In this document: positions 27,148-53,444 of the stretch, piece by piece
How the letters are laid out: each line of letters opens with the position of its first letter
Numbering within the stretch: position 1 is the first letter of the stretch
Source of the DNA: a virus
Reading direction: 5' to 3' (one strand)
Virus record (IMG/VR): IMGVR_UViG_3300035698_018280
Location: 99,888-163,887 of that record
Length of the DNA: 64,000 bases
Position numbers and translations under genes: made by a program
The notes under the pieces: model-generated
What the model saw: the letters and a program-made list of their open reading frames with translations, nothing else
The model's database searches: none
Told to the model about the DNA's origin: nothing

Positions 27148-27241
27148 CGTCAGTGGGAAATTGCTGAAATTAGTAGCTATCGAACATGTGAAATCGTTCG
27201 TCAGTGGGAAATGTGCAGGAAAATCATCCGTCAGTGGAAAT
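27148..27241. repeat. Three direct repeats CGTCAGTGG(G)AAAT, operator-like
   Basis: Copies at 27148-27161, 27199-27212 and 27229-27241 in the intergenic region upstream of the membrane-protein gene. Confidence 0.8.
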
Positions 27242-27283
27242 ACTGATACTTCACAGTAAAAATCACAGAATAACTACAGGTAT

Positions 27284-27721: not shown

Positions 27722-27724
27722 CTA

Positions 27725-28419: not shown

Positions 28420-28504
28420 CGTGATTTCCTTCCGGTACTTATAGTAACAGTGGCATAACTCCTAACTTAGGCAGCAAGGAGATATGTACTTGAACTTATT
28501 TGAG

Positions 28505-28519
28505 ATATCGTCATATTAG
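28505..28519 (-). promoter_or_regulatory. CTAATATGACGATAT motif (identical to 39313-39327)
   Basis: Exact 15-bp match between two gene-upstream regions. Confidence 0.55.
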
Positions 28520-28546
28520 ACTGGTTACAACCAATCTGCGAGAATA

Positions 28547-29620
28547 TTACTCGGGACGGAAGTTTGGGAACAGAGGAGAAGTCGCTCCGCCAAATGTGTT
28601 GCAAGACGGCGTGGTAGCTGGAAGATCTACGCCCGCTGCTCCAATCTCAGTTGCCTCATAGGAACATTCGCAGTCCGCAAGGGCATACCAAGGAATTCTG
28701 GTCTCAACAAGATCATTGGTAATAGCAATTTCTTCAATTTCGAAGATAACGCCATTTACTACTGTAGCAAAAACAGGAGTGCCAGAAGATCCAAGCTTGT
28801 AACCAAAAGCAATTTTTGAGTTCGATGTAAATCTCTGTTGGTTATTATATGCGAGTTCAGAAAGGTTCTTATTTCTACCCATCATAACGAGATTGCCTTC
28901 AATAGTTCTCTTACGAGCAGCAATATCCTGTGGGGCCAAACGGTTATTCAAAGTGTAGAATCGTTCAGCGTTGTTGTTAACTGTTGCCTCGAAAGATCTA
29001 ATCCAATCGCCAGAAACATCAGTCTGTTCATCTCCATAGATGCGAATAGCAAAGTCATTCCATGTAACGATACGAGCAGGGGCCAAGAAATCTAGATCTC
29101 CGCCGCCTGCCCATGGAGTACGAACATCATCTGTTGAGTTTGCTCCTGCAAGAATATCAACGCTCATATCAACTGAGCCTTCTTGGGCAACGGACATTGT
29201 TAGAGAGTTTACAAGGCCAGCAGGATAGATAAATGCCGTGTCATCTGTGTAACGTATTCGAACTTCCATAGCGTCATTTGTCAATCGACCGAACTGATCA
29301 CGCTGAGTAGCCAAGGCCCAAAAAAGCTGACCATGGTTGATTGTAGTTCCGCAATCTTTCGTTGTAACAACGTTCGAGCCTTCATGAACGAGAGGGAATG
29401 AGACATTCCCTTCAACGATACGAGGGCCAAGCTGATAGATAGTTCTGTCTAGGCGGCCATCAACGACATCTGGGAAACTAACTTCCTGAGACGCCCGAAT
29501 ATCTGCAGATGTAGCTCTAACAGTAACGTCTCCGTTAAAGTTAACTCCACCTGTGTTGACGACAATGTTACCAAAAGTAACAGAGCCTACAAAACCCATT
29601 GATGCACGTGGGACTGGCAT
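28547..29620 (-). CDS. Major tail tube protein
   Basis: 357 aa, beta-rich. GPRIVEGNVSF, VNSLTMSV, IRSFEATVNNN..FYTLN..PQDI..KRTIEG; strong GAGGAG ribosome-binding site; precedes the chaperones. Confidence 0.8.
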   Translation of the reverse strand: MPVPRASMGFVGSVTFGNIVVNTGGVNFNGDVTVRATSADIRASQEVSFPDVVDGRLDRTIYQLGPRIVEGNVSFPLVHEGSNVVTTKDCGTTINHGQLFWALATQRDQFGRLTNDAMEVRIRYTDDTAFIYPAGLVNSLTMSVAQEGSVDMSVDILAGANSTDDVRTPWAGGGDLDFLAPARIVTWNDFAIRIYGDEQTDVSGDWIRSFEATVNNNAERFYTLNNRLAPQDIAARKRTIEGNLVMMGRNKNLSELAYNNQQRFTSNSKIAFGYKLGSSGTPVFATVVNGVIFEIEEIAITNDLVETRIPWYALADCECSYEATEIGAAGVDLPATTPSCNTFGGATSPLFPNFRPE

Positions 29621-29705
29621 TGAAATCTCTCCTCGCTCTAAGCGCTATAAACTAAATTTGGACAGCCTAAATTAGTTCATAGCAAAGCGAACCGTATAGA
29701 CTGAT

Positions 29706-30077
29706 TTATTCGATATTACCACTTTCAATCACAAAGCCTGCTGCAAGAGATAGCGTAGCCCATTGCTGAGGAACCAAAATGCCCTCATCAGTGATCCATG
29801 CATCTAGGCTTACAGCCGTTGATCGACTCAGAACGTGGTTATTCAGAGAACGAACTGCCGGCAAAAAGTTAACCGGCGACTTCAGGATATCGTTGTTGAT
29901 AAGATAACTATTGTAAAACTCAGTCAACAAGTCAACTTCAGGAATAAGCTCCTGAAGCAAAACAATTTGGTACACAGCCTCGAATAGATATGAGACTGCG
30001 GAAACAACGCTAGTACGCGCAGTTGAGTAGTTCGTTGCAACCGAGAGGTAGTCAGTTCCACTAATAACGTCCGCCAT
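29706..30077 (-). CDS. Hypothetical structural-region protein
   Basis: 123-aa ORF with AGGAG ribosome-binding site. Confidence 0.75.
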   Translation of the reverse strand: MADVISGTDYLSVATNYSTARTSVVSAVSYLFEAVYQIVLLQELIPEVDLLTEFYNSYLINNDILKSPVNFLPAVRSLNNHVLSRSTAVSLDAWITDEGILVPQQWATLSLAAGFVIESGNIE

Positions 30078-30129
30078 TCCAGAATCTCCTAGCTGTTTCC
30101 TGATCTAAACTATATTAGATCGAAAAATT

Positions 30130-30199
30130 CTTCTTTATTAGTCCCACAAGCCTTCTGCGAGATACCTGATTACTCTACAAGATTCATTCTTAGAGTCCT
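30130..30199 (-). promoter_or_regulatory. Two tandem AGG-N16/17 promoter-like motifs upstream of the tube operon
   Basis: AAGG-ACTCTAAGAATGAATCT-TGTAG (30175-30199) and AAGG-CTTGTGGGACTAATAA-AGAAG (30130-30153). Confidence 0.45.
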
Positions 30200-30208
30200 T
30201 CTCTTTTT

Positions 30209-31420
30209 TCAGAATGACTCTAATGCTATTACCGTCTCTGAAGCAGCAGTTGTCTCAATGATCTGTGACAGCCTTTTAACGAAGGCTGTATTCGAGAAAC
30301 GAAACGCTACTTTTCGGGCTGCTTCAGATGCCATCTTCATACGTTCAGACTCTTCAAACATCCCATTTCTTACTTCTATGACCTTGTTTGCAAATCCTTC
30401 TACTGACACTACTGAATATTCTTCTTCTTTTCCTCCCACAAAGGCTTCGTGCGGCAGGAAAAATTGAAACTCTTCTGGCATTTGCGATATTATCTCTCCA
30501 ACCCTTCCCGCATTTGGCCCCATAGGTATTAGTCCAACCGCCATTCCCTCCAATAAACTAAGCGCTGTTGCAGACTTGACAGAAGTATCTACGATGAAAT
30601 CTCCCTGAGCATATTCTTCAAGCATTTCCTCATCCGAGATGCTGTCCTTAATGGAAACAAAATGTTCAGGAAGATCAACATTCGAAGCATTATAGCGATC
30701 GATTAATAGAGGAAGCTCATAATCACCTGGGTCATACAGGTTTGTATGAAGCTTGCAACGGACATCTGAGCCAGAATCAGCAACCAACCCCATCCCCTTT
30801 ATAAGAGCCCCTAAATTACTTGCCTGAGCATTCTTGGCACTACAAAAGATAGTGCAGCAATCGCCAGTTTTTTCCGTAGGATGGAACTTAGAATGATCTG
30901 GACCATATGACAAAAACTCTCCATCTATATTACATAGCTCATTAAGGTTGTTCCATCCAAACTCGCTCGTCGAGATAACATAATCTGCATATTCAATACG
31001 ATCCTTAAACTCTTCATTAACAGGCCAACAATCAACTGTCAAAACAGATATCCATTTGAAGAGATTGGGATACATGGCCTTGATCGCATAAATAAAGCTG
31101 ATCTCCTTGTAATCGCCTATAGAAATAACTATATCTGGTTGAACCTTCTTCATCATCTCATACAGCAAAGCCTCGGCCTGTTCGCTTTGAGGAAAAAATG
31201 GATATAATTCGCATATTTGATTGCCATCATCATCTTCAAAGTAATGAAGGCCTCCTTCATCAGGAAGGAAAAACCCTTCATCATGATGCCATACAGCGCT
31301 AGTTACATGGTGGCCCTGTCCCTTTAGCTGTTTTATAACATCGCCATTGATGCGGCCATTTCTAACCAATAAATAAGGCGAAGCGCCAACTGTTAAAATT
31401 CTCATCTTCTTCTCCATCAA
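30209..31420 (-). CDS. Glycosyltransferase, GT4-like (atypical)
   Basis: MRILTVG, GHHVT, QPDIVISIGD, YGPDHSKFHP. TSVKSATALSLLEGMAVG sits where the E-x7-E motif would be, with the first Glu absent. Confidence 0.8.
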   Translation of the reverse strand: MMEKKMRILTVGASPYLLVRNGRINGDVIKQLKGQGHHVTSAVWHHDEGFFLPDEGGLHYFEDDDGNQICELYPFFPQSEQAEALLYEMMKKVQPDIVISIGDYKEISFIYAIKAMYPNLFKWISVLTVDCWPVNEEFKDRIEYADYVISTSEFGWNNLNELCNIDGEFLSYGPDHSKFHPTEKTGDCCTIFCSAKNAQASNLGALIKGMGLVADSGSDVRCKLHTNLYDPGDYELPLLIDRYNASNVDLPEHFVSIKDSISDEEMLEEYAQGDFIVDTSVKSATALSLLEGMAVGLIPMGPNAGRVGEIISQMPEEFQFFLPHEAFVGGKEEEYSVVSVEGFANKVIEVRNGMFEESERMKMASEAARKVAFRFSNTAFVKRLSQIIETTAASETVIALESF

Positions 31421-32103
31421 ACGTAGTTTATTGCTTCAAATGATACTTCTACTCTGTCTAATCCATTCTTTATTTCTCTATGAGTTAACTTGAGATTAGT
31501 ATTGTCTATAAATAACAAGTCTTCGTAAAAATCAGAGATCTTGAATCCAAAACGAATTGAAAAGGCAATCTCGGCCTCTGTTGATTCTAAAAATGTCGGT
31601 CCCTCTTGATTTAAAGTTTTGTTATATGCCGAAATCGAGCCTGTCATAGCAGATTGTTTATATTTGCGATGAAACTCTGTCTTATAAATACTTCTAGGTA
31701 ATCTAACGCCAGTTGTTGAAACAATATCAATTTTGCAATCAGGACTTATTACAACTCTTGGAACAGGATCATCAGAACTAAATAATAGAGGATCGCATGT
31801 GTCCTCAAAATTACCTTCAATAATTACTTCTATATCAAAAGTATCTTGAACTTGTAACTGAAAACCAAGATCTTTAATGTAACATTTGGTATAACTCTCG
31901 CCAACGCCATCATCATGATAGAGTTTTATACCGAAGTAATCGCCATTGTCTATCGAGTGCAATAAAGCTTTGGCTATATTTTCATATTTTCCTGGTATAC
32001 ATTGCATAGCGAAAATGAGTTTCATCTCATCTTCTTTGCTATAAAACTCAGAAATTTGTATAGGATAGTCAGGAAGAAAATCGAAACATACTACAGTTAT
32101 CAT
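31417..32103 (-). CDS. Diverged tail-tube paralog (putative)
   Basis: 228 aa. By-eye alignment to the tube: IKLYHDDG..Y..CYIKDLGFQL vs VRIRYTDD..Y..GLVNSLTMSV; PVPRVVISPDCKIDI vs APARIVTWNDFAIRI. Confidence 0.5.
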   Translation of the reverse strand: MITVVCFDFLPDYPIQISEFYSKEDEMKLIFAMQCIPGKYENIAKALLHSIDNGDYFGIKLYHDDGVGESYTKCYIKDLGFQLQVQDTFDIEVIIEGNFEDTCDPLLFSSDDPVPRVVISPDCKIDIVSTTGVRLPRSIYKTEFHRKYKQSAMTGSISAYNKTLNQEGPTFLESTEAEIAFSIRFGFKISDFYEDLLFIDNTNLKLTHREIKNGLDRVEVSFEAINYV

Positions 32104-32110
32104 GCTAGAC

Positions 32111-33022
32111 CTACGTTAGTTGCGGGTCGTCCCAACCGCCTCTTGTCTGCTGTTCGGTTTCCTTACCAAACCAGGAGATTGTAGAAGCATGTAGCAACGA
32201 TCCTTTGTGAATGTATCCATAGTCTATATCGGCAGGCCACGAGTTATAAACGAATCTATTCAGCCCAATGATTTTAGAATCTTCAGATACAAAGTAAGGG
32301 TTCGCTGGAGGAACGCAGACCTCGATAGTCTGCCCATCAATAATATTTAGTATTTCCAATTCTTCTGCTCGATGGATATTTTCAATAACAATCTTTTGCT
32401 CAGAAAACATATTGGTAGTGTCTGTGACTCTCAAAAAATTGTCGCCAATGACTACATCAGCCGCAACTGTATGAGTCGTATATGGACCAATCAAAGGAAA
32501 TATATTCTTTTTCAAACCCTCCTGAATAGCCTTAGTTACTTTTAACAAGAAACGATAACTGTCTTCTTGATTGTCTGCCTGGACGTAAGTTACGATCTTG
32601 ATATTATAGGTTTCAGTTGTAACGCCAAGGGTCAACCATTCTGAAGTTCTGTTACCTGGCATAATAGCGATCGATGGATAAACAGGTATAACCGCAGGAT
32701 CTCCTAGATAAATAGCCTGAATAAAATTACCATTCCATGCCTTGATAAGAAGAGAATCTTGACCAGGGCCGAATCCGTCAGTGGAACTAATAGGATTCAA
32801 AAGCTTCACAGTTTCACTGTCAATAATTTTTTCGATAGTAAGGTGAGGCTCGCCGAGGCCGGTACCAGGATCGAATAAAACTACTTCATCGCCTGCTCGG
32901 AATCGATGAGAAGTAGTAACGCTAATGATATCTTGACCCAAGCTAATATCAGCCGTCAATGGCGCTGATGTATTAGCCCAGCGATAAACAGTTCTACGAA
33001 TACTTTCAAGAATCTCTTCCAT
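32111..33022 (-). CDS. Tail terminator/completion-like neck protein with two inserted beta domains
   Basis: 303 aa. IYLGDPAVIPVYPSIAI...EWLT...YNIKIVTYV core; position between adaptor and tube genes. Confidence 0.6.
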   Translation of the reverse strand: MEEILESIRRTVYRWANTSAPLTADISLGQDIISVTTSHRFRAGDEVVLFDPGTGLGEPHLTIEKIIDSETVKLLNPISSTDGFGPGQDSLLIKAWNGNFIQAIYLGDPAVIPVYPSIAIMPGNRTSEWLTLGVTTETYNIKIVTYVQADNQEDSYRFLLKVTKAIQEGLKKNIFPLIGPYTTHTVAADVVIGDNFLRVTDTTNMFSEQKIVIENIHRAEELEILNIIDGQTIEVCVPPANPYFVSEDSKIIGLNRFVYNSWPADIDYGYIHKGSLLHASTISWFGKETEQQTRGGWDDPQLT

Positions 33023-33280
33023 TTAGAATAGCTTCTCTTTCAAAACATCATCAATATATCTATCGATACTATCTTCTAATTCTTCATCGGTAGGTTCGCC
33101 GTCTGGCTCATTAAAAGGACGATTCTGTTTAATAGCTTCTGCCCTACCTTGGGATACCGCATCTTCTGGCGTGCTGCTCAATTTAGAATCATTGCCAAAA
33201 ATAATACCAGAATTCATGCTATCGATAACTTCTCCATCAATCTTATCGATATTTTTGAATAGCTCGTTTAATTCATCCAT
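33023..33280 (-). CDS. Small acidic hypothetical protein
   Basis: 85-aa ORF translationally coupled to both neighbours. Confidence 0.7.
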   Translation of the reverse strand: MDELNELFKNIDKIDGEVIDSMNSGIIFGNDSKLSSTPEDAVSQGRAEAIKQNRPFNEPDGEPTDEELEDSIDRYIDDVLKEKLF

Positions 33281-34011
33281 TATTTTATTTTCCCAATGTC
33301 TCTTGAAGTATCCTGATCAGCCTTCGTGCCTGGCAAACGATAGCGATCTCTAAGATATGGGTTAAGAAATCTATGACCGATTCTCTTCTGTCCCTGCAAG
33401 ACAGTTCTGCCGTTTAGTATGTTATTAAGGTCTCTAATAGCCATTCCTCGAAGAGTCTCTCCGTAGTCTGACATATTAGGAGCAACCTGAGCCGCAAAAT
33501 ACTTGTCGTAGATATTTGCTGCTGCTAATCTCGCAGAAGCCATAGGAATAGGCGGCGGGAACTTTACTCTTATTACTCTTGTTTCTGAAGAATCATATGA
33601 ACCAACGATTGTTTCGATCAAATCAACTGTTGTATTATTGGTTATAACATCGACAGTATGACGTTCTTCCTGTAGATCATCAAAAATTACTATAGTATCT
33701 CCAGGAACCAAGTTGACTGCTTTTGTTACCTGTAATTCATTATTGTACTCATTAATGTCAAATAACAGAATCATTTCAAAGTCGGCCTTTTCGCACAGAG
33801 GAGTGCGATACATCTCGCTCAACGCACCGTCAAGCTCTTCGTCAGACCATTGTATATATTGATTTACTATTTCATCAGAAATCTGGTTTTGATTCCTTAC
33901 ATTACCAAATGATACTAATGGAACTTTTGCACCATTAACAACGCTATTGGTAGCCGAGGTCAATGCTTGAGCGAGAATATTATCTACGAGTTGAGGAGTT
34001 GCATAGCCCAT
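33280..34011 (-). CDS. Head-tail adaptor, Mu gp36/DUF1320-like, with inserted beta domain
   Basis: MGYAT...QYIQWSDEELDGALSEMYRTPL...PPPIPMASARLAAANIY...AIRDLNNILNG pattern. Confidence 0.7.
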   Translation of the reverse strand: MGYATPQLVDNILAQALTSATNSVVNGAKVPLVSFGNVRNQNQISDEIVNQYIQWSDEELDGALSEMYRTPLCEKADFEMILLFDINEYNNELQVTKAVNLVPGDTIVIFDDLQEERHTVDVITNNTTVDLIETIVGSYDSSETRVIRVKFPPPIPMASARLAAANIYDKYFAAQVAPNMSDYGETLRGMAIRDLNNILNGRTVLQGQKRIGHRFLNPYLRDRYRLPGTKADQDTSRDIGKIK

Positions 34012-35042
34012 TAGTCAGTTTTATCCGCCTTCTTCTTGGCAAGTTGCGATTGAATATACAGACCCTCGACAACTGCTGTACGAGGATTCTTAGCGTGACG
34101 AACTTCCTTGATATTGAAAGGCAAATCTAAACTTCTGACAATTTTTTCAAGCTTCTTACAGAAACCCTTTGGCATAGAAGTTCCGCCTGCCACAACAATA
34201 TCCATTGGCGCATCAAACTGACTTTTCTCCTTCTGGAACTTTTTAGCAAAGTGCCCGAAGACATATTTAATCATCTGCTCATAATAAGCATCTAGAGCAA
34301 AAATAACATCATCATCAAAGTCTATATTGTCGAAATCTAACTTCTTTTCCTTTATTGAAATAACCTGAGATATAGGCGTTCCGGTCTGCTCTGAGACCAA
34401 CTGGTCAATCCAGTCTCCGCTACGAGAGACAGACATTCCGATAACTTGAAGGCCTCGATATGACAATACGCAGTTGGCCCTGCCTGCCCCAAAGCTGACG
34501 CCAATACCGCTATAAGGAATTTCTCCTTCTTCCTCATACATAACAGGTTTAGCAGCAGTAACAACCGCATGTCCTTCCTCGATCACCTTTACGTTCCATC
34601 CTAGTCTTGAAACTAATGCCTCAAGGCGATTGCGATGAAATACAGAATCCTGAGAACCATCCACTGATTCAGAAGATACGCAGAGACAGCACCATGACTT
34701 ATCGTCAGGAGCCTCGCCAATTGCTGAATTCATCATCTCAGCAAGAACGACAAGCTTTTTATCTTCTTCTTTATTAAGAACTCCGCCTGCCATCGGGCGA
34801 CGAACCTCAACTTTGCCAGGAAAAATGTTAGCAACCTTCATTGCATCATCTCCTATGACAAAGTATTCTCCATCATCCTGAATATACTGCCATCCATTTC
34901 GCTTTAATGTTTCTTCAATATCATCTGTTTCATTTAGCTCAACGAAGCAATTACGGATGGTTTTGAATGATATCTCTTCGCCTTCTTTTTCGGCGGAGTG
35001 AAAAAACATAGTTCCTGGGTCTAGTCCTACAACTCTAGACAT
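34011..35042 (-). CDS. Actin-like ATPase, volactin-like family
   Basis: Phosphate-1 GLDPGT, connect-1 VIEEGHAV, phosphate-2 GVSFGAG, SGDWID, adenosine VVAGGTSMPKGF, connect-2 PRTAVVEG. Confidence 0.88.
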   Translation of the reverse strand: MSRVVGLDPGTMFFHSAEKEGEEISFKTIRNCFVELNETDDIEETLKRNGWQYIQDDGEYFVIGDDAMKVANIFPGKVEVRRPMAGGVLNKEEDKKLVVLAEMMNSAIGEAPDDKSWCCLCVSSESVDGSQDSVFHRNRLEALVSRLGWNVKVIEEGHAVVTAAKPVMYEEEGEIPYSGIGVSFGAGRANCVLSYRGLQVIGMSVSRSGDWIDQLVSEQTGTPISQVISIKEKKLDFDNIDFDDDVIFALDAYYEQMIKYVFGHFAKKFQKEKSQFDAPMDIVVAGGTSMPKGFCKKLEKIVRSLDLPFNIKEVRHAKNPRTAVVEGLYIQSQLAKKKADKTD

Positions 35043-35232
35043 GAGATATCTCCTTACCTGTCTTTCCGTCGAAGAACTTACTCCACGAACAGTTGCACCA
35101 ATTTCCGTCTATTAATCTTTTTCCAAAATGAGTTTCTATTGTCATGTTGGGATTATCCTTACAAAACTTTGTGAGTTGCCTAGCTACATCTTGTATTTCT
35201 TCTTCAGTTGCTTGTACTTTAGATTTTGACAT
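35035..35232 (-). CDS. Small hypothetical protein coupled to the actin gene
   Basis: 65 aa with AAGGAG ribosome-binding site; overlaps the actin start by 8 bp; WCNCSW motif. Confidence 0.65.
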   Translation of the reverse strand: MSKSKVQATEEEIQDVARQLTKFCKDNPNMTIETHFGKRLIDGNWCNCSWSKFFDGKTGKEISHV

Positions 35233-35246
35233 GTGGTCTTTTCTCC

Positions 35247-35849
35247 TTATCCGAGCAAGTCTTCAAGCTCGTCAATATTGCTATCGACATTTGTTTTGCT
35301 TTTAGTTTTTTTGTGCTCAATGCTTCCCTTAGTATTTTTCGTTATTCGATCAACTGTTCTCTTTTGAATATCAACAGCCGTATCGTCTGGCATCACAAAT
35401 TCATCATCGACAGGAGCAGAAGCCCCTCCTCCGGTTGTTATACCCTGTAGCGCCTGTATGGCCTCCTGAAGCTGTCCCATAGCATTAGGGTCTAACGACC
35501 CCTGAGACTGTTGATCCTTTATAGCAGCTTGCTGAGCCCTTCCCATTTCTTGTTGACGATCAATAAGCTCTTTTCTCATATCCTTAAGCTCTTTCATGAC
35601 ATCTACGCTGCTATCTTTTTCAATAATCGTCGTAATATCCTGGGACTGAGTACCAGGAGGAACTCCTGCGGTATCCTTGCGAACAATCTTGACTAGATTT
35701 CGCTTAATAGCAATCTTCAGGCTTTTAGATCCTTCAGCAACATATCTAGAACATATCATATCAAGGTCTTGTTTCTGTCCCGGATTCAGCGATAACCGAA
35801 GATCTCCAAGGACCAGTTCTTGCGAACTTCTGTTCTTTATCAGAAACAT
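35247..35849 (-). CDS. Coiled-coil protein with small N-terminal domain (putative actin partner)
   Basis: 200 aa. N-terminal IKNRSSQELVLGDLRLSLNPGQKQDL domain, central coiled coil, C-terminal amphipathic NVDSNIDELEDLLG. Confidence 0.75.
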   Translation of the reverse strand: MFLIKNRSSQELVLGDLRLSLNPGQKQDLDMICSRYVAEGSKSLKIAIKRNLVKIVRKDTAGVPPGTQSQDITTIIEKDSSVDVMKELKDMRKELIDRQQEMGRAQQAAIKDQQSQGSLDPNAMGQLQEAIQALQGITTGGGASAPVDDEFVMPDDTAVDIQKRTVDRITKNTKGSIEHKKTKSKTNVDSNIDELEDLLG

Positions 35850-35851
35850 CT

Positions 35852-36034
35852 TTATCTCCGTGTTCTGCTTTTTGGATATGGATCTGGTCCCGCAGTAGCA
35901 AGCGATAGTTCATTCATCTTTTTACATTCCGGACAATGCCAGTATACTTTTTGTTCTCTAAAATTGAATTCAACTCCAGTATCGTTTTCATGATGACCGC
36001 AGTGATTACAAACGCATATAATTTTAGTGTTCAT
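35852..36034 (-). CDS. Zinc-ribbon protein
   Basis: 60 aa with CNHC...CPEC; coupled to the upstream gene by a TAATG overlap. Confidence 0.75.
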   Translation of the reverse strand: MNTKIICVCNHCGHHENDTGVEFNFREQKVYWHCPECKKMNELSLATAGPDPYPKSRTRR

Positions 36035-38358
36035 TACTTATTCAGCTTATCAAGATTTATATCTACATATTTTGAAATTACCAATGCCATCCCATCAAGA
36101 TGAGAAACAGATGTATAACGCATAAGTTTACTCTTGACATCTAGTATTTCAGCAATCTGGCTAGCAGCCTTAACGAGTATGTTGTAACGGGCCATAGCAA
36201 GCGAGTGACGCTTCTCATAATCCTCAATGTTTGTCCAGCCAGTTCCTTCTTCTGCATCTATATCTCGCATTTGACCCAAATAGTCAGCCATGCGTTTTCT
36301 GAAATCTCCATACGTCCTCAACTGCTTATATAAAGCAGCTAGAACTTCAGGATCGCTCAATGTATCTACTTCATCTACAGTAAATTCAGGTTTTTTGATA
36401 AGTTTTACAGGCTTTTTTGTTTTCTTGTTAATTTTATTCTCAACATCAATAAGACCTTCGTTGATCATCTCTTGTTGTTTATTATAACCTCTAGAAGACT
36501 TATCGTACCTACTCTTAAGCATCTCTCTTCTCTTTTCAGGAGGAACTTTAGAAGAAAGCAAATTGCCTATGGTTCTTGATTCAGGATGGGGTTTTAGCAT
36601 ATTGAAGAAGCCTAGAGCAGTCTCTTTATCGACATCACCAGCGCGCATCATTTCCAAAACTTCAGGTCCAACTATATCAAGAAGTTCCTGCGTTTTCATA
36701 TGCAAGTTTTGAGCCTGCAGCCTTCTGTACGATGGATCTGTTTCTAGCTTCTCTCTGTCTAATGGTTCTTTGTTCTTTCCTAGATATTTATTTGTTTTTT
36801 CTTTATCGTTACCAAACTCATCGTCAAGACGAAGTATCATCCTGTCTAGCATAGAATAATTATTTGAAACAAGGGCTCCGAAATCAAGATCCATCGCGCC
36901 AGTTTCTTGATTTGGCCTATATATTGAACTTCCAGAAGGAGTTACATCTTTGATGTATCCAAGATTTTTAATCGTTTTATCAATATCTTTTGATGACATT
37001 TTGCCGGAAGCAGCATTCTCCATAGTCAGTTCAAGAGCATTTCTCATAGAGGCTGTAAACTCATCAATAAAGAAACTATGCATCTTCATCTTTTCTTGTT
37101 TTGCTCTTTCTCGATCTGTTCTTGGTTCCATATCAACAACCTTACCCTGAAGAACTTCCCTAATCTTATCTCCTAGGGTTTCAATTTTTTCAGGTATGAC
37201 GAGAAGACCTTTTCTCATAACATCGTATTCTTCTTTAGAAATGCCTTCTCCTGCACCCTCGTCGAATTCATTGATACGGCCTGCAAGACCGGCGTCATCT
37301 GCAAAATCTATATTCTCGCCTTCATTGCCGACCATGCCGCCGCCGCGATTAGTATTAATGGCCTGATCAAATTTAGGATTAAGAGCCTTTCTAACGTAGT
37401 CGAATATATCTGGATCCTGAGACATCATACGACCTGTGAAATCAGATTCGAGTTCCGATACTATATCTGGGTTCTGAGCTATCCAACGAGCGCGTTCAGA
37501 CGCCCCTCTTCCCTGAACGTCAATTCCTAGTTCTTCAAGAGCAGCAGCGCCGCCCGTTTTAAATGATGCGTAGTAGCCTATGATGGGATCGTAACTTTGC
37601 CCCTCAGTATCACCGGCGCTTCGAAAGCCTTCTGGGATGCGATTAAACACGGAGTCAAGACGCTCGATCTGAGAGGCTCCTCGAAAGCCTTCTTCAGATA
37701 AGCTTTCAAAATACCCATCTCTTCCTTCTGCTTGCGGACCAAGAAATGATTGATAAAACATTTCGGCATATGGTTGCTGAAGGTTGACTGCATCGCCAAC
37801 TGGCAACTCAGTAGTTTCTGTTGCCGCCGCAGGATGAACAAGCAGTTCAGAAAGTATCTGGTAAAATGTCTCTCTATTGTTTTCGTTATTCTTAATTTCT
37901 GGCGGAAGAGCTTCAAATTCAGGATACTCAGTGTATCCTGCAGCCATCTGTTGAAGCTGTTCATAAGGAAGATCAGGCTGTTCTGCTGGCTCTACTGAAG
38001 TTGGAGCTTGTAACTCTGAATGAAATCTCTTCATAGCCTCAGACCAAAGATCTGGCATATCTCTCGCCCATTCTGGCGGTTGAATAATTTGCTGCATTAT
38101 GGCAAGGTCCATACCCGGCTCATACAAATTTTGAATATGTCGCACTAGCTTCATGATCCTAGCTTCGCTGCCAGCATCGTCCATTACAGGAGCAGTCTCA
38201 GGCTTTGGGGCGATTATGGGCTCAGGCATCTGTTGAGGCTGAAGCCTGAGCGGCTGAGGTGTAGGCGGGCCAACAACTGTCGGCTGTAGCTGCGGCAAGG
38301 CGCTCTTCCTAGTAAGGCGAGACGTTCTTTCAATGATTGCTAATAGCTTTTTCAGCAT
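36034..38358 (-). CDS. Large helical hypothetical protein (possible internal head protein)
   Basis: 774 aa with AGGAG ribosome-binding site and P/Q-rich N-terminus; no recognisable catalytic motif. Confidence 0.75.
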   Translation of the reverse strand: MLKKLLAIIERTSRLTRKSALPQLQPTVVGPPTPQPLRLQPQQMPEPIIAPKPETAPVMDDAGSEARIMKLVRHIQNLYEPGMDLAIMQQIIQPPEWARDMPDLWSEAMKRFHSELQAPTSVEPAEQPDLPYEQLQQMAAGYTEYPEFEALPPEIKNNENNRETFYQILSELLVHPAAATETTELPVGDAVNLQQPYAEMFYQSFLGPQAEGRDGYFESLSEEGFRGASQIERLDSVFNRIPEGFRSAGDTEGQSYDPIIGYYASFKTGGAAALEELGIDVQGRGASERARWIAQNPDIVSELESDFTGRMMSQDPDIFDYVRKALNPKFDQAINTNRGGGMVGNEGENIDFADDAGLAGRINEFDEGAGEGISKEEYDVMRKGLLVIPEKIETLGDKIREVLQGKVVDMEPRTDRERAKQEKMKMHSFFIDEFTASMRNALELTMENAASGKMSSKDIDKTIKNLGYIKDVTPSGSSIYRPNQETGAMDLDFGALVSNNYSMLDRMILRLDDEFGNDKEKTNKYLGKNKEPLDREKLETDPSYRRLQAQNLHMKTQELLDIVGPEVLEMMRAGDVDKETALGFFNMLKPHPESRTIGNLLSSKVPPEKRREMLKSRYDKSSRGYNKQQEMINEGLIDVENKINKKTKKPVKLIKKPEFTVDEVDTLSDPEVLAALYKQLRTYGDFRKRMADYLGQMRDIDAEEGTGWTNIEDYEKRHSLAMARYNILVKAASQIAEILDVKSKLMRYTSVSHLDGMALVISKYVDINLDKLNK

Positions 38359-38392
38359 AGCTGATAACTCCTAATTCTAGTCCTCCCTATAT

Positions 38393-38417
38393 CTTCGTAT
38401 AAGAATGGAGAAAACCT
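38393..38417 (-). promoter_or_regulatory. AGG-N17-CGAAG promoter-like motif upstream of the 774-aa/actin/neck operon
   Basis: Minus strand GAGG-TTTTCTCCATTCTTATA-CGAAG. Confidence 0.6.
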
Positions 38418-38421
38418 CTCT

Positions 38422-39306
38422 CTATGTAGATAGAGAGGATACTCGCTTTTCGGCTTTTTTACAAGATTCCTCGCTGATATCGCAGGCAAGAAATCTGCAA
38501 CCCAGTTTTTTAGCAGCAACGATTGTCGTACCAGATCCCACAAATGGGTCAAGAACAATTCCGTCTTTTGGGCAGCCTCCCATAATAGGGATGCTTGCTA
38601 AATCTTCCGGATATGGAGCCTTATGTCCTGTTTTGCCATGGTGATCTGAATCAAGCTCCCAAACCGCTCTTCGTTCTTTTTTGTCAATCTCCGCAAAAAT
38701 ATCAGTCCCATTGTCTTCTACAATCCACTTAACCTGTTCAATATCAAAATCATATCTCGGAGATTGCGTAAATAAGAATACAGGTTCAAAATCTATCGTA
38801 AACCTATTTTTGGCTGCTGTTGGTTGAACAATTCTTTTTTTCCAAATAATAAGGTTACGGCAATGCCAATCGCCATCATCAATCATCTTGATCGCTAAAC
38901 GGTAAGGAATCATAAGAAGAGATCTTCGAGGATATGTCTTATCATATTTAGTTGTTTTGAGACGATGTTTACCTATATTAGGAGCATCATTATTGTCGTG
39001 CGCGAAATATCCACCTGAGTTCTCGTTATAACAATCGCCTACATTAATCCAAAGCGTACCTTTCTTTTTAAGTACACGTTTGACTTCTATAAAAAAGTTA
39101 AACATACGATCGATATACTGAGGCATTGTCTCTTCTAATCCGTACTGTCCGCTGACGCCATAATCTCTCTGTTGCCAATACGGAGGAGAAGTCACAACTA
39201 TGTCAACCGAATCATTTGGTAATTTGCGCAAAAACTCTATAGCATCTCCACAAACTATTTGATCGATAGCATCATCAATATTTTGCATGTCTTCTAATAG
39301 AAGCAT
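38422..39306 (-). CDS. DNA methyltransferase, N4-cytosine/N6-adenine, beta class
   Basis: Catalytic motif IV TSPPY precedes SAM-binding motif I VLDPFVGSGTT; H.APYP motif. Confidence 0.93.
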   Translation of the reverse strand: MLLLEDMQNIDDAIDQIVCGDAIEFLRKLPNDSVDIVVTSPPYWQQRDYGVSGQYGLEETMPQYIDRMFNFFIEVKRVLKKKGTLWINVGDCYNENSGGYFAHDNNDAPNIGKHRLKTTKYDKTYPRRSLLMIPYRLAIKMIDDGDWHCRNLIIWKKRIVQPTAAKNRFTIDFEPVFLFTQSPRYDFDIEQVKWIVEDNGTDIFAEIDKKERRAVWELDSDHHGKTGHKAPYPEDLASIPIMGGCPKDGIVLDPFVGSGTTIVAAKKLGCRFLACDISEESCKKAEKRVSSLST

Positions 39307-39312
39307 ACAATT

Positions 39313-39327
39313 ATATCGTCATATTAG
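39313..39327 (-). promoter_or_regulatory. CTAATATGACGATAT motif; CGATA core 7 nt upstream of the methyltransferase ATG
   Basis: Identical to 28505-28519; no Shine-Dalgarno before the ATG. Confidence 0.55.
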
Positions 39328-40121
39328 TCCCAATCAATCTCATTTTCATAAGCATCAATCTCTACTTTTTTGTCCCAGCTAGGAAGGCTTACATCTGTTG
39401 AGCGATAACAAGCATCAATATCATTTACGATACTTTCTCTAACACATGAATTATACCCGAGTTCTACGAACCCAACACCCTCTACTTCTTTAAGTCGAGT
39501 AAGAGCATCCGCAAGACCATTATCGTCATGAGACCTAGACTTATGATAAACAAGATCAGACTGTTCAGTATCGCCTGTACAAACAACCTTAGATCCTTCT
39601 CCTATACGAGTTAGAAGAAGATGCATTTGTTCAACGCTTGCATTCTGCATTTCATCGCAAACAACATAAGCATTTTTAAATGTAACGCCTCTCATATAAG
39701 CAAGAGGAAGAACAACTATTTTCTTCTCGTCTACAAATTTAGCAAGCTCTGCGTTACTAAGATAATCGCTGACTACATCATACATGGGCATCATGTAAGG
39801 TGCAACTTTTGCCTCGGCAGAACCAGGCAGATAACCTAGCGATTCACCGGCCTCAACGACAGGTCTAGTAAATATTATTTGTTCATATTTTTTCTTCATA
39901 ACCATCTGTTGCAAACCCCATCCAACAGCGATATGAGTTTTACCTGTTCCTGGAACTCCAGAAAGTATAGTTACTTTGTTTTCGCTAATAGTGCGAAGCG
40001 CATCTTTTTGCCCTTTGTTTCTAGCTGAAACTGCTACAACTAATTTAGTTTCGCCTGTCTTAGTTGTTAGTGTATATCCGTCATTTACAGTCTTCTTATC
40101 CGTCTTTGTTCTTTTTGCCAT
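39324..40121 (-). CDS. phoH: PhoH-family ATPase
   Basis: Walker A GVPGTGKT, TRPVVEAGESLGYLPG, PLAYMRG.TF, DEMQN, LTRIGEGSK, GDTEQSD. Confidence 0.96.
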   Translation of the reverse strand: MAKRTKTDKKTVNDGYTLTTKTGETKLVVAVSARNKGQKDALRTISENKVTILSGVPGTGKTHIAVGWGLQQMVMKKKYEQIIFTRPVVEAGESLGYLPGSAEAKVAPYMMPMYDVVSDYLSNAELAKFVDEKKIVVLPLAYMRGVTFKNAYVVCDEMQNASVEQMHLLLTRIGEGSKVVCTGDTEQSDLVYHKSRSHDDNGLADALTRLKEVEGVGFVELGYNSCVRESIVNDIDACYRSTDVSLPSWDKKVEIDAYENEIDWD

Positions 40122-40557
40122 GTTCTCTCCGTTTTGATGGAACTAGTAAATACCAGTCTTCGTTATGTTCTTTTGCGATTACTCCTTCGAATACATGCCA
40201 CTTATGTCTTATGGAACAATCCGAGAATAAATCGGTAACATAATCCCAAAATGTTCGACGTATTTTAGTAATACGTCCTGACAATACTTGAATGCGAATA
40301 AGAACAAGGTCTTCATCAAAATCCTCCTTTACCTGGTCTAGTAAACTATCTATATGATTTCGTATCATAAGGTCATCCCAACCTTCTGCTTGCCGAGCAC
40401 GAGATAAACGCCTCCGTTCCGAAGAACTGAGGCTTTGCATTAACGTCTCACGTTGTATCTCACTGAGAGGTCTTGTCAACGAGTAGAACTCTTGATATGA
40501 TTCAAATATGCGTTCGCCGCGCATCGGGTGGTCCTTGATACAAGGATACAAGCTCAC
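40096..40557 (-). CDS. Hypothetical protein
   Basis: 153-aa ORF in frame with the operon; GTG start (alternative ATG downstream). Confidence 0.7.
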   Translation of the reverse strand: MSLYPCIKDHPMRGERIFESYQEFYSLTRPLSEIQRETLMQSLSSSERRRLSRARQAEGWDDLMIRNHIDSLLDQVKEDFDEDLVLIRIQVLSGRITKIRRTFWDYVTDLFSDCSIRHKWHVFEGVIAKEHNEDWYLLVPSKRREHGKKNKDG

Positions 40558-40563
40558 CTATAA

Positions 40564-40588
40564 TACCGAAACAATGAATTAGAATCCT
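40564..40588 (-). promoter_or_regulatory. AGG-N17-CGGTA promoter-like motif
   Basis: Minus strand AAGG-ATTCTAATTCATTGTTT-CGGTA, ending 6 nt before the GTG at 40557. Confidence 0.55.
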
Positions 40589-40598
40589 TCTTATAAAG

Positions 40599-41072: not shown

Positions 41073-41078
41073 AGATTT

Positions 41079-41612: not shown

Positions 41613-41614
41613 GA

Positions 41615-52562: not shown

Positions 52563-53444
52563 TTAGCTAGTTTCGGAAACAGTTATCTTAGCGATGGCAT
52601 AATCATTTATGATTGCAATGCCGACCTCTTCGTAGATAACCCAACCGAGACGAAGCTTCTTAGGATCATCCGCTGGAAGAACCGTAATATCCTGACGGAT
52701 AGGGAAGGCTCCAACGGTGTCTGGGGAAGCGACAACGAGGATGGTGTTCTGAGGCATACGGGACGAGACATGGATGTCTGCGGTCCAGAGGTGCCCATAA
52801 AGACCTGTCGTGAGGATCTCACGAGTGGTGGCTTCATCATAGAAATCCTTACCAAAGGTACGGATATCTGCGTAACGCCAAGCGTTAAGAACAATCTTCG
52901 TAGCAACGAGGTCATGCTTCTCGATGTGACGGAAGGCGCTGTTCAACGATGTAGTGCTGAGCGAGCCCATGTCAACAACGATCTGCGAATCGCCAGCCGC
53001 GTCGCGAGCGTCAGCAGCAGCAATAAGAGCGTTGAAAATCTGAGTGTCCTCTTCCTTCTGAATCGCTTCCTTAGCCTTGATCTGCGCACGGTCTACAATG
53101 TAGAAACGGCGAGCCTTGATTTCGGAAAGACGAATCGTCGGGTTAGCGGCGATTTCCCAGGTTGGGACGAGAATTTCTTCGCCTTCCTGGATCTGGTCGG
53201 GGACTGCGCCTCGACGGGAAACAACGTGGGCGATGGCTGCAACATCTCGCTCATATCGAGCAAGCGCGCCCTGGGGAAGCTCGTCAACCATGAGGAGCTT
53301 GCGACCAACAGCTTGATACTCAAGACTTCTACGAATGGGCTCGACCATAGCTTGCGCTAGTGCGGTGCGACCTTCATCAGTTTCTAGAGCCTGAGCAATG
53401 ACAGCTTCTTTCATATCGTCTGTCAAGTTTTTTGTAAAAGACAT
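52563..53444 (-). CDS. Major capsid protein (HK97 fold)
   Basis: 293 aa. EPIRRSLEYQAVGRKLLMVDELPQG, AKEAIQKEED..IF, GHLWTADIHVS, GWVIYEEVG. AAGGAG ribosome-binding site, follows protease and decoration genes, strong terminator after. Confidence 0.88.
   Translation of the reverse strand: MSFTKNLTDDMKEAVIAQALETDEGRTALAQAMVEPIRRSLEYQAVGRKLLMVDELPQGALARYERDVAAIAHVVSRRGAVPDQIQEGEEILVPTWEIAANPTIRLSEIKARRFYIVDRAQIKAKEAIQKEEDTQIFNALIAAADARDAAGDSQIVVDMGSLSTTSLNSAFRHIEKHDLVATKIVLNAWRYADIRTFGKDFYDEATTREILTTGLYGHLWTADIHVSSRMPQNTILVVASPDTVGAFPIRQDITVLPADDPKKLRLGWVIYEEVGIAIINDYAIAKITVSETS

What the first reader, a model, noticed from the sequence alone, without database searches (positions are those of the whole stretch)
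34011..36034. Volactin-like actin cassette embedded between phage head and neck genes
Seen: a 343-aa actin-fold ATPase with all actin motifs, tightly coupled to a 65-aa protein, a 200-aa coiled-coil protein and a 60-aa zinc ribbon upstream, and to the head-tail adaptor downstream (1-bp overlap). From my recollection of the family, its signature strings (GLDxGTM, RNxFVE, VIGDDAxxxANIF, RRPMxxGVL, GxSFGAG, RxGDWID, TGTP..IKE, YY..I.YV, GGTSxPxGF) match haloarchaeal volactin better than ParM, MreB or FtsA. The characterised phage cytoskeleton (PhuZ) is tubulin-type, and known ParM-like actins partition DNA. Inference: an actin co-expressed with late assembly genes, with a coiled-coil adaptor, could position or traffic capsids or remodel the cell during assembly.
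Basis: partly seen in the sequence, partly recalled or inferred. Interest (0 to 1): 0.82.

Follow-up and report, generated by a model that had tools for sequence, protein, structure and literature searches.

The report
Huge-phage volactin actin with docking adaptor
A very large uncultured phage (about 0.5 Mb) carries its own strongly conserved actin of the "volactin" family, and a phage-only partner protein is predicted to plug its tail into that actin; the pair sits directly before the head-tail joining gene, so these phages probably build their own actin filaments late in infection, which no paper I could search describes.

Summary
The ORF at 34011-35042 (-) is a full-length Volactin-family actin (Pfam PF25216, 223 bits against a cut-off of 35). 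It folds with high confidence (pLDDT 95.8). Its closest solved relatives are the filament formers MamK, MreB and BeeR, not ParM or Hsp70.

The window is the end of a 164-kb fragment of a huge phage whose capsid protein is 54% identical to that of Bacillus phage G. Starting from the neighbouring adaptor gene, 34 of 35 related IMG/VR loci have the actin directly upstream. The Zn-ribbon and the 200-aa protein travel with it, down to 36% actin identity.

The 200-aa protein has a folded N-domain, a long helical middle and a conserved C-terminal ...DELE(D/G)LL helix. A co-fold places that helix in the actin's IA/IIA cleft (ipSAE 0.80; best control 0.00), as ParR does on ParM.

The 65-aa gene is not part of the system. 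It occurs only in this window and is probably a relic of a homing endonuclease. Relatives carry inteins at four or more sites inside the actin.

No centromere-like repeats or tubulin were found. Filament formation, the cargo and the timing are all inferred. This scan has noted the same module on other DNA (77 notes, at least 64 genomes). Verdict: a new variant of a known kind.

The parts
34011..35042 (-). Volactin-family actin-fold ATPase, 343 aa. Phosphate-1 is DPGT (D8, G10, T11), phosphate-2 is SFGAG (S183, G185, G187) and the adenosine motif is GGTS (G286, G287, T288).
   Evidence: Pfam PF25216 E 7.7e-66, 223 bits. AF2 model pLDDT 95.8, pTM 0.92. Family profile against PDB: MamK 4.6e-15, MreB 5.6e-9, BeeR 6.6e-9. 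Invariant motif columns across 69 family members. 56-86% identical in relatives.
35247..35849 (-). Phage-only 200-aa adaptor candidate. It has a confidently folded N-domain (about residues 1-60), a long helical (coiled-coil-like) middle, and a conserved C-terminal block ending N-I-D-E-L-E-D-L-L-G.
   Evidence: Alignments A1 and A9. AF2 model: residues 1-60 at pLDDT 94-98, helices at 78-139, 155-171 and 188-199. 139 homologues, none with a Pfam domain, on contigs up to 548 kb. Co-fold of residues 150-200 with the actin: ipSAE 0.80 against 0.00 for the best control.
35852..36034 (-). 60-aa zinc ribbon (CxxC...CPxC) with a basic P-x-P-K-x-R-R tail. It travels with the adaptor and the actin; its function is unknown.
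   Evidence: Pfam Zn_ribbon_LapB 6.4e-7. Four invariant cysteines in alignment A2. Found by tblastn in 29 of 35 loci and in the distant relatives L019 and L020.
35035..35232 (-). 65-aa ORF that is not part of the conserved module. It is probably the remnant of a free-standing LAGLIDADG homing-endonuclease gene.
   Evidence: Absent from 0 of 35 related loci. At least 6 relatives carry a 240-275-aa LAGLIDADG_2 gene at this exact position. Its first 32 residues resemble the N-terminus of those genes (28% identity, pairwise E 4e-4).
33280..34011 (-). Probable head-tail adaptor (Mu gp36 / DUF1320-like), 243 aa. Its start shares one base with the actin's stop codon.
   Evidence: Phage_Mu_Gp36 hit in 5 of 9 orthologues (best E 7e-5). 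phrog_195 'head-tail adaptor' hit in 7 of 9 orthologues (best E 3.7e-6). All scores are weak, so the assignment is probable and not proven.
36034..38358 (-). 774-aa protein of unknown function. Its stop codon shares one base with the start of the zinc-ribbon gene. It begins the tightly packed gene run.
   Evidence: ORF. No Pfam or PHROG hit. Not detected by tblastn in the related loci.
32111..33022 (-). Conserved 303-aa protein two genes downstream of the adaptor. It is likely a virion or neck component, but it is unassigned.
   Evidence: Conserved in all related loci at 36-69% identity. Only scattered weak PHROG hits.
28547..29620 (-). Tail tube protein. It marks the downstream end of the neck-to-tail stretch.
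   Evidence: Pfam Phage_tube_2 2.8e-10. phrog_290 1.7e-12.
52563..53444 (-). Major capsid protein, given for context. It lies 17 kb upstream of the cassette.
   Evidence: phrog_2522 E 9.1e-68. 54% identical to Bacillus phage G gp27.

Best explanation
The 343-aa protein is a phage-encoded cytoskeletal actin of the volactin family. I propose that it binds and hydrolyses ATP and polymerises into filaments in the infected cell. The 200-aa protein would be its dedicated adaptor: a probably dimeric helical stalk carries a C-terminal amphipathic helix (N191, I192, E194, L195, L198) that plugs into the cleft between actin subdomains IA and IIA. This is the site where ParR grips ParM and where WH2-type peptides grip actin. 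The adaptor's folded N-domain would hold a cargo. Because the trio is packed into one gene run with the head-tail adaptor and tail genes in nearly every relative, the filament most likely acts late and organises virion assembly in space (heads, tails or finished particles). It would thus be the actin counterpart of the tubulin PhuZ. What is shown: family membership, the fold, intact nucleotide-binding motifs, strong conservation, and conserved synteny. What is predicted only: docking of the adaptor. What is inferred: polymerisation, late timing, and the nature of the cargo.
For: Family and fold: Pfam Volactin 223 bits, full length; AF2 pLDDT 95.8. The family profile finds only the filament formers MamK, MreB and BeeR, then FtsA, in the PDB, and finds no Hsp70 or ParM. 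By fold, BeeR scores Z 27.9 and MreB Z 25.6. The founding member, VolA of Haloferax volcanii, forms dynamic filaments in vivo (PMC10869688). The nucleotide-binding motif columns are invariant in 69 family members. Conservation: actin identity is 56-86% across phages whose adaptor, tube and other neighbours are 25-76% identical. Only the capsid protein was found to be more conserved (78-81% against 57-67%). Each of the five related genome records searched has a single copy, including two that are 98-100% complete. Synteny: searching from the adaptor gene, 34 of 35 loci have the actin directly upstream. The same Zn-ribbon / adaptor / actin / 245-aa / ... / tube order recurs at 36% actin identity. 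Docking: ipSAE 0.80 (runs 0.82, 0.80, 0.54) against 0.00 for the best of 3 controls. That mark was reached by 58 of 80 solved complexes and 2 of 110 mismatched pairs. The runs agree in at least 84% of contacts, and the partner's pLDDT is at least 71. The counts hold only roughly because my own alignments were used. The contacting adaptor residues E194, L195 and L198 are the invariant or near-invariant ones. Selfish elements: relatives carry inteins at 4 or more sites around the phosphate-2 loop and homing endonucleases at the actin's 5' flank. This is the usual mark of a highly conserved phage gene. No tubulin was found in G000 or in two 98-100% complete relatives.
Against: Polymerisation was not tested, and by fold alone the Hsp70 nucleotide-binding domain scores nearly as well (BiP Z 23.9). 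The docking is a model, and such peptide-in-cleft poses resemble solved actin and ParM complexes, so the pass may partly reflect likeness. Cleft binding could equally mean sequestering or capping rather than cargo coupling. All genes in the window are on one strand, so co-orientation with virion genes is weak evidence for co-regulation. The promoter and terminator scans were no better than shuffles. In one distant relative (L022) the actin sits next to a Holliday-junction resolvase and a PD-(D/E)XK nuclease, not next to neck genes. The fold and cargo of the adaptor's N-domain are unknown.
Confidence: 0.55

Rival explanations
1. This is a ParMRC/AlpAC-type DNA-handling machine. The actin filament, coupled through the 200-aa protein and/or the zinc ribbon to phage DNA, would position, segregate or deliver replicating genomes (for example to packaging sites) rather than handling virion parts.
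For: The predicted cleft docking of a C-terminal helix matches how ParR holds ParM (ParMRC knowledge from Salje, Gayathri and Lowe 2010, cited). Some cellular Volactin-family proteins are fused to a ParB-type HTH domain (P0167, P0219). There is a weak PHROG 'partition protein' hit (phrog_691, 4.5e-4). The one characterised phage actin, AlpC with AlpA, acts on phage DNA (PMC4446434, PMC5539076). In L022 the actin neighbours are a resolvase and a nuclease. The zinc ribbon with its basic tail could bind nucleic acid.
Against: There are no iterated centromere-like repeats and no intergenic space in or next to the cassette: gaps are 0-14 nt, and the repeats found are at chance level. No ParM/StbA Pfam hit was listed, and ParM ranks well below MreB, MamK and BeeR by fold and is absent from the profile search. 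The adaptor has no detectable DNA-binding domain. The module's position is tied to the neck genes in 34 of 35 loci. This contrasts with the separate, oppositely oriented gp506/gp505 'partition protein' pair of Bacillus phage G.
Confidence: 0.2
2. This is a host-takeover cytoskeleton. The phage actin would reshape or enlarge the host cell, or displace host MreB or the division machinery, to increase the space for a burst of very large particles. The 200-aa protein would act as a nucleator or anchor.
For: VolA of H. volcanii is a cell-shape determinant (PMC10869688). The closest solved relatives by profile, MamK and MreB, are membrane-associated organisers. A dimeric protein with actin-binding tails is also the design of actin nucleators (my own knowledge, not tested here).
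Against: No membrane-targeting element is evident in the actin or the adaptor. Host-takeover genes are usually early genes and are not embedded among neck and tail genes (general phage knowledge). The tight link to the head-tail adaptor is unexplained on this reading.
Confidence: 0.15
3. This is a non-filamentous ASKHA ATPase that acts as an assembly chaperone for neck or head-tail joining (Hsp70-like), with the 200-aa protein as its co-factor or substrate.
For: The gene lies immediately before the head-tail adaptor with a TAATG overlap. Hsp70 nucleotide-binding domains give Z 22-24, close to actin itself. Viral Hsp70 homologues that help build virions exist in closteroviruses and appear among the BFVD matches.
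Against: The protein has no substrate-binding domain; at 343 aa it is an actin core only. The family profile finds MamK, MreB, BeeR and FtsA but no Hsp70. The family's characterised member polymerises. The very high sequence conservation fits multi-surface filament constraints.
Confidence: 0.1

Closest known systems
Volactin (VolA, HVO_2015) of Haloferax volcanii; Pfam PF25216
   Same: Same Pfam family: full-length match at 223 bits, with the same motif set including the Asp-less phosphate-2 loop S-F/W-G-A-G. VolA forms dynamic, ParM-like unstable filaments in vivo.
   Different: The phage proteins form their own well-supported clade with a long stem, about 30-39% identical to other family members. 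They are encoded by huge phages inside a virion gene run and are paired with a phage-only adaptor and a zinc ribbon. A role in cell shape is not implied. The family is also common in Planctomycetota, so it is not specifically archaeal.
ParMRC plasmid partition system (ParM actin, ParR adaptor, parC centromere)
   Same: An actin-fold ATPase is paired with a small adaptor whose C-terminal helix is predicted to insert into the IA/IIA cleft.
   Different: No ParM/StbA HMM match, and the fold is more distant (R1 ParM Z 19.0 against BeeR 27.9). No centromere repeats. The adaptor gene is upstream rather than downstream and has no recognisable DNA-binding domain. The genomic setting is virion genes.
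AlpC/AlpA of Corynebacterium glutamicum prophage CGP3
   Same: A phage-encoded actin-like protein working with an adaptor (PMC4446434, PMC5539076).
   Different: AlpA binds alpS DNA sites, and the system serves phage DNA transport and replication. I had no AlpC sequence, so no direct comparison was made. The present module is in a huge lytic-type phage genome next to neck genes.
PhuZ tubulin spindle of nucleus-forming jumbo phages (Chimalliviridae)
   Same: By analogy only: a phage-encoded cytoskeletal polymer that organises late infection and moves capsids (PMC8314001, PMC9067925).
   Different: Different fold (tubulin). No tubulin gene was found in this phage fragment or in two near-complete relatives. 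Nothing here indicates a phage nucleus.
MamK / MreB / BeeR bacterial actins
   Same: These are the closest solved relatives: MamK E 4.6e-15, MreB 5.6e-9 and BeeR 6.6e-9 by family profile; BeeR Z 27.9 and MreB Z 25.6 by fold. All form filaments.
   Different: Only 12-19% identity. The MreB Pfam score of 23.9 is below its cut-off of 27. There is no magnetosome or cell-wall context.
Bacillus phage G gp506 'partition protein' with gp505
   Same: Phage G shares the capsid lineage (54% MCP identity) and also encodes an actin-fold protein (BFVD match TM 0.61).
   Different: 13% identity and no Volactin HMM hit anywhere in phage G. gp506/gp505 form a separate, oppositely oriented two-gene unit at 386 kb, far from the virion genes. 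Phage G also lacks detectable homologues of the 243-aa adaptor and of the tube protein.

Membership tests
Volactin (Pfam PF25216) | Score above the curated gathering cut-off over the full model length | tested here: met
   223.2 bits against a cut-off of 35, E 7.7e-66, profile positions 3-318 of 321. Reproduced on the genome at 222.8 bits.
Volactin (Pfam PF25216) | Actin/ASKHA fold with intact nucleotide-binding motifs, including the family's S-F/W-G-A-G phosphate-2 loop | tested here: met
   AF2 pLDDT 95.8, pTM 0.92. All top fold matches are actin-fold proteins. D8, G10, T11, G185, G187, G286 and G287 are invariant, and S183 and T288 nearly invariant, in 69 members.
Volactin (Pfam PF25216) | Forms dynamic filaments in vivo, as shown for VolA | not testable with these tools
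   Known only for H. volcanii VolA (PMC10869688).
ParMRC-type partition system | ParM/StbA-family actin | tested here: not met
   No ParM/StbA family among the Pfam hits at E up to 0.1. The profile search against the PDB finds no ParM at E up to 0.01. There is only a weak phrog_691 'partition protein' hit over residues 217-333 (4.5e-4).
ParMRC-type partition system | Centromere of iterated repeats next to the operon | tested here: not met
   Gene junctions are 0-14 nt. The repeat search of 31000-40500 found only short two- or three-copy chance-level matches.
ParMRC-type partition system | Adaptor whose C-terminal helix binds the actin's IA/IIA cleft | tested here: met
   By prediction only: ipSAE 0.80 against 0.00 for the best control. 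The mark was reached by 58 of 80 solved and 2 of 110 mismatched pairs. Contacts of adaptor residues 191-199 are with actin residues 162-165, 176-177, 196-198 and 326-337. The model supports binding but does not show it.
ParMRC-type partition system | Adaptor is a sequence-specific DNA-binding protein (RHH/HTH) | tested here: inconclusive
   No Pfam domain in the adaptor or its 139 homologues. The N-domain folds confidently, but the fold search only matched the helical stalk.
MreB (Pfam PF06723) | Score above the gathering cut-off | tested here: not met
   23.9 bits against a cut-off of 27, covering only residues 56-216. The structural likeness is real (Z 25.6) but it is a resemblance at clan level.
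AlpC/AlpA (CGP3 prophage actin system) | Sequence relationship to AlpC, and an adaptor that binds alpS DNA sites | not tested
   No AlpC or AlpA sequence was available through the tools. The comparison rests on the papers only.
Head-tail adaptor, Mu gp36/DUF1320 (for the downstream 243-aa gene) | Profile match to Phage_Mu_Gp36 / phrog_195 | tested here: inconclusive
   The window protein scores 21.3 bits against a cut-off of 24.7. 5 of 9 orthologues hit the Pfam family and 7 of 9 hit phrog_195 (best E 3.7e-6). The best, non-significant, PDB profile hit is also a DUF1320 protein.

The most novel reading that the evidence does not exclude
A whole clade of 0.35-0.55-Mb phages runs an actin-based transport system for virion assembly. 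Volactin filaments would carry or position procapsids, heads or tails through adaptors that share one cleft-docking C-terminal peptide (N-x-x-E-[LI]-x-D-L) but differ in their cargo heads. One sporadic small adaptor-like ORF in two relatives even copies the N-arm of the major capsid protein and ends in NRFEILDLE. This would be the first actin counterpart of the PhuZ capsid-trafficking spindle, and it would have arisen independently of it.
Probability: 0.22. Interest if true: 0.85.

Novelty: new variant of a known kind. Interest (0 to 1): 0.66.

Why it matters
Phage-built cytoskeletons are known from one tubulin (PhuZ/TubZ) and from one DNA-handling prophage actin (AlpC). Here a different actin family is close to a core gene of a widespread clade of huge phages. 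It is more conserved than every neighbouring structural gene tested except the capsid protein. It has been invaded repeatedly by inteins and homing endonucleases. It is paired with a previously undescribed adaptor that is predicted to use the classic actin-cleft docking mode. If it polymerises, it would show that very large phages solved the problem of organising assembly in space at least twice, once with tubulin and once with actin. It would also provide a small, expressible actin-adaptor pair for studying how cargo is coupled to filament ends. Finally, it widens the biology of the recently named volactin family well beyond haloarchaeal cell shape.

Tried and rejected
1. Centromere search: the repeat scan of 31000-40500 gave only chance-level short repeats.

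2. Promoter and terminator scan of 27000-42000: counts were no higher than in shuffles, so operon limits could not be set.

3. Sequence search of the single actin against the PDB: nothing significant. The profile version did work.

4. The search for related loci with the diverse alignment A3 failed because no stretch was conserved enough.

5. I tried to retrieve haloarchaeal VolA by picking acidic representatives. P0246 and P0221 turned out to be from Planctomycetota, so no true archaeal volactin is in my tree, and no donor or direction of transfer can be stated.

6. The cluster look-up for names of distant relatives was uninformative.

7. The Atlas feature search on the adaptor's N-domain scored 0.81-0.83, which is chance level. 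The fold search on the adaptor model matched only generic long helices (Z up to 5.3), so the N-domain fold remains untested.

8. The 243-aa adaptor and the tube protein have no tblastn match in 50,697 phage records.

9. A scan of the 164-kb genome fragment for other ORFs ending in the docking motif found only the 200-aa protein itself.

10. A search for more capsid-N-arm mimic ORFs found only the query itself and one other example.

11. Literature searches for volactin, phage actin and huge-phage actin found no description of this module. Absence from the searchable library is not proof of absence.

13. I considered whether the 343-aa gene might be a disguised capsid or scaffold gene because of its position. 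I rejected this: the capsid protein is elsewhere and the actin assignment is unambiguous.
Full report
OBSERVATION. The 343-aa ORF ends in TAATG, sharing one base with the start of the next gene. It has an AAGGAG site 7 nt before its ATG. From 38358 down to 30209, ten genes follow one another with overlaps or gaps of at most 14 nt.

WHAT THE GENOME IS. The window is the last 64 kb of a 163,887-bp IMG/VR virus record that CheckV rates 33% complete, which implies a genome near 0.5 Mb. All substantial ORFs are on one strand. The major capsid protein is at 52563-53444 (phrog_2522, E 9e-68). A head-maturation protease domain opens the 1951-aa ORF 54127-59982. A tail tube gene is at 28547-29620. The capsid protein is 54% identical to gp27 of Bacillus phage G (497 kb) and 35% identical to the metagenomic huge phage LR745208. 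The cassette therefore lies about 17 kb downstream of the capsid gene. PhoH, a DNA methyltransferase, an RNA ligase, a protease and glycosyltransferases lie in between. The cassette sits directly upstream of a 243-aa gene that is a probable Mu gp36/DUF1320-type head-tail adaptor. The evidence for that assignment is weak but consistent: 5 of 9 orthologues hit the Pfam family and 7 of 9 hit phrog_195.

WHAT THE PROTEIN IS. Pfam places it in Volactin (PF25216) at 223 bits (cut-off 35) over the whole model. MreB reaches only 23.9 bits, below its cut-off, and no ParM or FtsA family is listed. With a 69-sequence alignment AlphaFold gives pLDDT 95.8 and pTM 0.92. The family profile searched against all PDB sequences finds MamK (4.6e-15), MreB (5.6e-9), BeeR (6.6e-9) and FtsA (9e-7), and finds no Hsp70, ParM or eukaryotic actin at E up to 0.01. 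By fold, the best matches are BeeR (Z 27.9, rmsd 3.8, 308 residues aligned), MreB (25.6), crenactin (24.8), and actin and the BiP nucleotide-binding domain (both 23.9). ParM of R1 scores 19.0 (Foldseek agrees). So sequence profiles tie the protein to filament-forming actins, while fold alone cannot exclude an Hsp70-like ATPase. The nucleotide-binding columns are invariant or nearly so in the family: D8, G10, T11; S183, G185, G187; G286, G287, T288. The founding member, VolA of Haloferax volcanii, forms dynamic filaments and affects the rod-to-disk transition (PMC10869688). The family is not specifically archaeal. It is chromosomal in many Planctomycetota and occurs in Omnitrophota. It also occurs fused to ParB-HTH, Wzz/BY-kinase and Ser/Thr-kinase modules.

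DISTRIBUTION AND CONSERVATION. The large protein collection holds 475 hits. The best 120 are all 60-86% identical and all carry PF25216, on contigs up to 467 kb. The 50%-clustered library holds 826 related clusters. In a tree of 126 family members with E. coli MreB and FtsA as outgroups, the window's protein falls in a clade with full support and a long stem (0.49). This clade is nested in a 39-member group (support 98) whose sampled members are also phage-borne. I could not include a true haloarchaeal volactin, so I infer nothing about the origin. Thirteen IMG/VR loci found with the actin (contigs up to 548 kb) all show the order PhoH ... Zn-ribbon, 200-aa protein, actin, 243-aa adaptor, 303-aa protein, (glycosyltransferase), 123-aa protein, tube. 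Starting instead from the 243-aa adaptor, 34 of 35 loci have the actin directly upstream. The exception is the most divergent locus. Where tblastn missed the 200-aa protein, a gene with the same N-terminal and C-terminal blocks is nevertheless present. The order persists at 36% actin identity in L019 and L020. A partner-plus-actin pair is also seen in LR745208 at 30% identity. In one distant relative (L022) the downstream neighbours are a resolvase and a nuclease instead. The actin is 56-86% identical where its neighbours are 25-76% identical. The capsid protein is more conserved still (78-81% against 57-67% in the same genomes). Each of the five related genome records searched has one copy, including the two that are 98-100% complete. 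None has a tubulin.

THE PARTNER. The 200-aa protein has 139 detectable homologues. All are about 185-200 aa, all lack a Pfam domain, and all are on phage-like contigs. It has a conserved N-terminal block (about residues 1-60, modelled at pLDDT 94-98 as a small mixed beta/alpha domain), a variable long-helix middle, and a conserved C-terminal block ending ...N-I-D-E-L-E-D-L-L-G. I co-folded residues 150-200 with the actin, using alignments for both chains. The result was ipSAE 0.80 (runs 0.82, 0.80, 0.54) against 0.00 for the best of three controls. That mark was reached by 58 of 80 solved complexes and 2 of 110 mismatched pairs. The runs share at least 84% of contacts, and the partner's pLDDT is at least 71. 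The counts hold only roughly because my own alignments were used. The tightest contacts join N191, I192, E194, L195, E196 and L198 to actin residues 162-165, 176-177, 196-198 and 326-337. In the model's secondary structure these are the IA-IIA connecting helix, IIA strands and the C-terminal helix, which together form the cleft used by ParR on ParM and by WH2-type peptides on actin (my knowledge of those complexes). E194, L195 and L198 are the invariant or near-invariant residues of the adaptor family. This supports binding but does not prove it, and it may partly echo solved complexes. The zinc ribbon (four invariant cysteines and a basic tail) travels with the pair, but I have no functional lead for it.

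THE 65-AA ORF AND SELFISH ELEMENTS. The 65-aa ORF is found in none of the 35 relatives. At its position, at least six relatives carry a 240-275-aa free-standing LAGLIDADG_2 endonuclease gene, and one carries an HNH gene. The first 32 residues of the 65-aa ORF resemble the N-terminus of those endonucleases (28% identity, pairwise E 4e-4). It is therefore most likely an endonuclease relic and not part of the system. Within the actin gene itself, relatives carry Hint/LAGLIDADG inteins at four or more distinct sites: after GIS, after SFGAGM, after GMAN, and after SVAR. All are in or just after the phosphate-2 loop. Repeated invasion of this kind is typical of highly conserved phage genes and points to an intact, important ATP site.

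RIVALS. The partition reading (ParMRC/AlpAC-like) is supported by the docking mode, by ParB-HTH fusions elsewhere in the family, and by the L022 context. Against it stand the lack of any centromere-like repeats or intergenic space, the lack of a DNA-binding domain, and the neck-gene linkage. Phage G shows what a phage partition cassette looks like: gp506 'partition protein' with gp505, oppositely oriented and far from the virion genes. Phage G has no Volactin HMM match. The chaperone reading is weakened by the profile search and by the absence of a substrate-binding domain. A host-remodelling role cannot be excluded.

LITERATURE AND EARLIER NOTES. Seventeen papers mention volactin, and none of the 14 listed concerns phages, judging by their titles and abstracts. 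Searches on phage or jumbo-phage actin returned only PhuZ reviews and the AlpC papers. This scan has noted the same module before on other DNA: 77 notes in at least 64 genomes. Follow-ups reached the same reading. I re-tested family membership, synteny and docking independently here.

VERDICT. This is a real, conserved three-gene actin module (Zn-ribbon, adaptor, volactin-type actin) tied to the neck genes of a clade of huge phages. It most likely forms a phage cytoskeleton with a cleft-docking adaptor. Filament formation, timing and cargo all remain to be shown.

Noticed in passing
Relatives P0121, P0123, P0133, P0136, P0137, P0142, P0164, P0180, P0191, P0192, P0194, P0196, P0232, P0234, P0244, P0267 (equivalent to window residues about 183-208 of the ORF 34011-35042): Volactin genes of 684-798 aa are interrupted by Hint/LAGLIDADG inteins at four or more different sites, clustered in and after the phosphate-2 loop: GIS|C, SFGAGM|C, GMAN|C and SVAR|C. 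The window's copy has no intein, but it has C191 at the third site.
   Followed up: partly
window 35035-35232 (-); L052:3243-3965, L055:434-1246, L056:3124-3939, L059:3101-3925, L061:3116-3925, L081:3111-3938, L005:4681-5595: The gap between the adaptor gene and the actin gene is a hot spot for free-standing homing endonucleases (LAGLIDADG_2 in six relatives, HNH in one). The window's 65-aa ORF looks like a truncated relic of one.
   Followed up: yes
L005:5605-5829 and L006:5524-5742 (identical to L015:1313-1531); also L006:5178-5522: Small ORFs between the adaptor and the actin have an N-terminal stretch of about 32 aa that is 59% identical to residues 7-38 of the major capsid protein. They end in NRFEILDLE or NRFKILDL, which resembles the adaptor's docking motif N-x-x-E-[LI]-x-D-L. 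They could be a capsid-linked second adaptor, or debris carried in with the neighbouring endonuclease. They occur in only 2 of about 28 distinct phages.
   Followed up: partly
L015 (JBECUL010000084.1, 7.6 kb, labelled 'Candidatus Asgardarchaeum abyssi' MAG): This contig encodes proteins that give identical search scores to those of the 548-kb IMG/VR phage contig of L006, in the same gene order. It is a huge-phage fragment binned into an Asgard archaeon MAG. Mis-binning is most likely, but a host link was not examined.
   Followed up: partly
window 52563-53444 (-); NC_023719.1 23289-24137 and 385879-387376: The capsid protein is 54% identical to Bacillus phage G gp27, but the neck and tube genes have no match in phage G. 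Phage G has its own, unrelated actin-fold 'partition protein' gp506 with gp505 on the opposite strand.
   Followed up: partly
L026-L049 (Planctomycetota and Omnitrophota MAG contigs up to 4.1 Mb); P0167, P0219, P0233, P0240: The Volactin family is widespread on Planctomycetota chromosomes, usually with acidic N-terminal extensions. It also occurs fused to ParB-HTH, Wzz plus BY-kinase-like ATPase, and Ser/Thr protein kinase domains.
   Followed up: no
window 54127-59982 (-): A 1951-aa ORF begins with a head-maturation-protease-like domain (phrog_18299 and phrog_2774, residues 33-192). The remaining roughly 1750 residues are unassigned.
   Followed up: no
window 62236-63918 (-): A 560-aa ORF combines weak portal/terminase-like PHROG hits in its N-half with a DUF559/HNH-type endonuclease domain in its C-half (residues about 399-530). 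It may be a packaging gene with an inserted or fused endonuclease.
   Followed up: no
L014 (IMGVR_UViG_3300045125_000158, 187 kb): Every gene of the module is broken into two or three tblastn pieces in different frames. This suggests frameshift-rich assembly (or a decaying copy) rather than real gene loss.
   Followed up: no
L003 genome (IMGVR_UViG_3300005681_000225, 494 kb, 98% complete): IMG/VR classes this near-complete relative as a 'provirus'. If that is true, it would bear on the partition/lysogeny rival. It was not examined.
   Followed up: no
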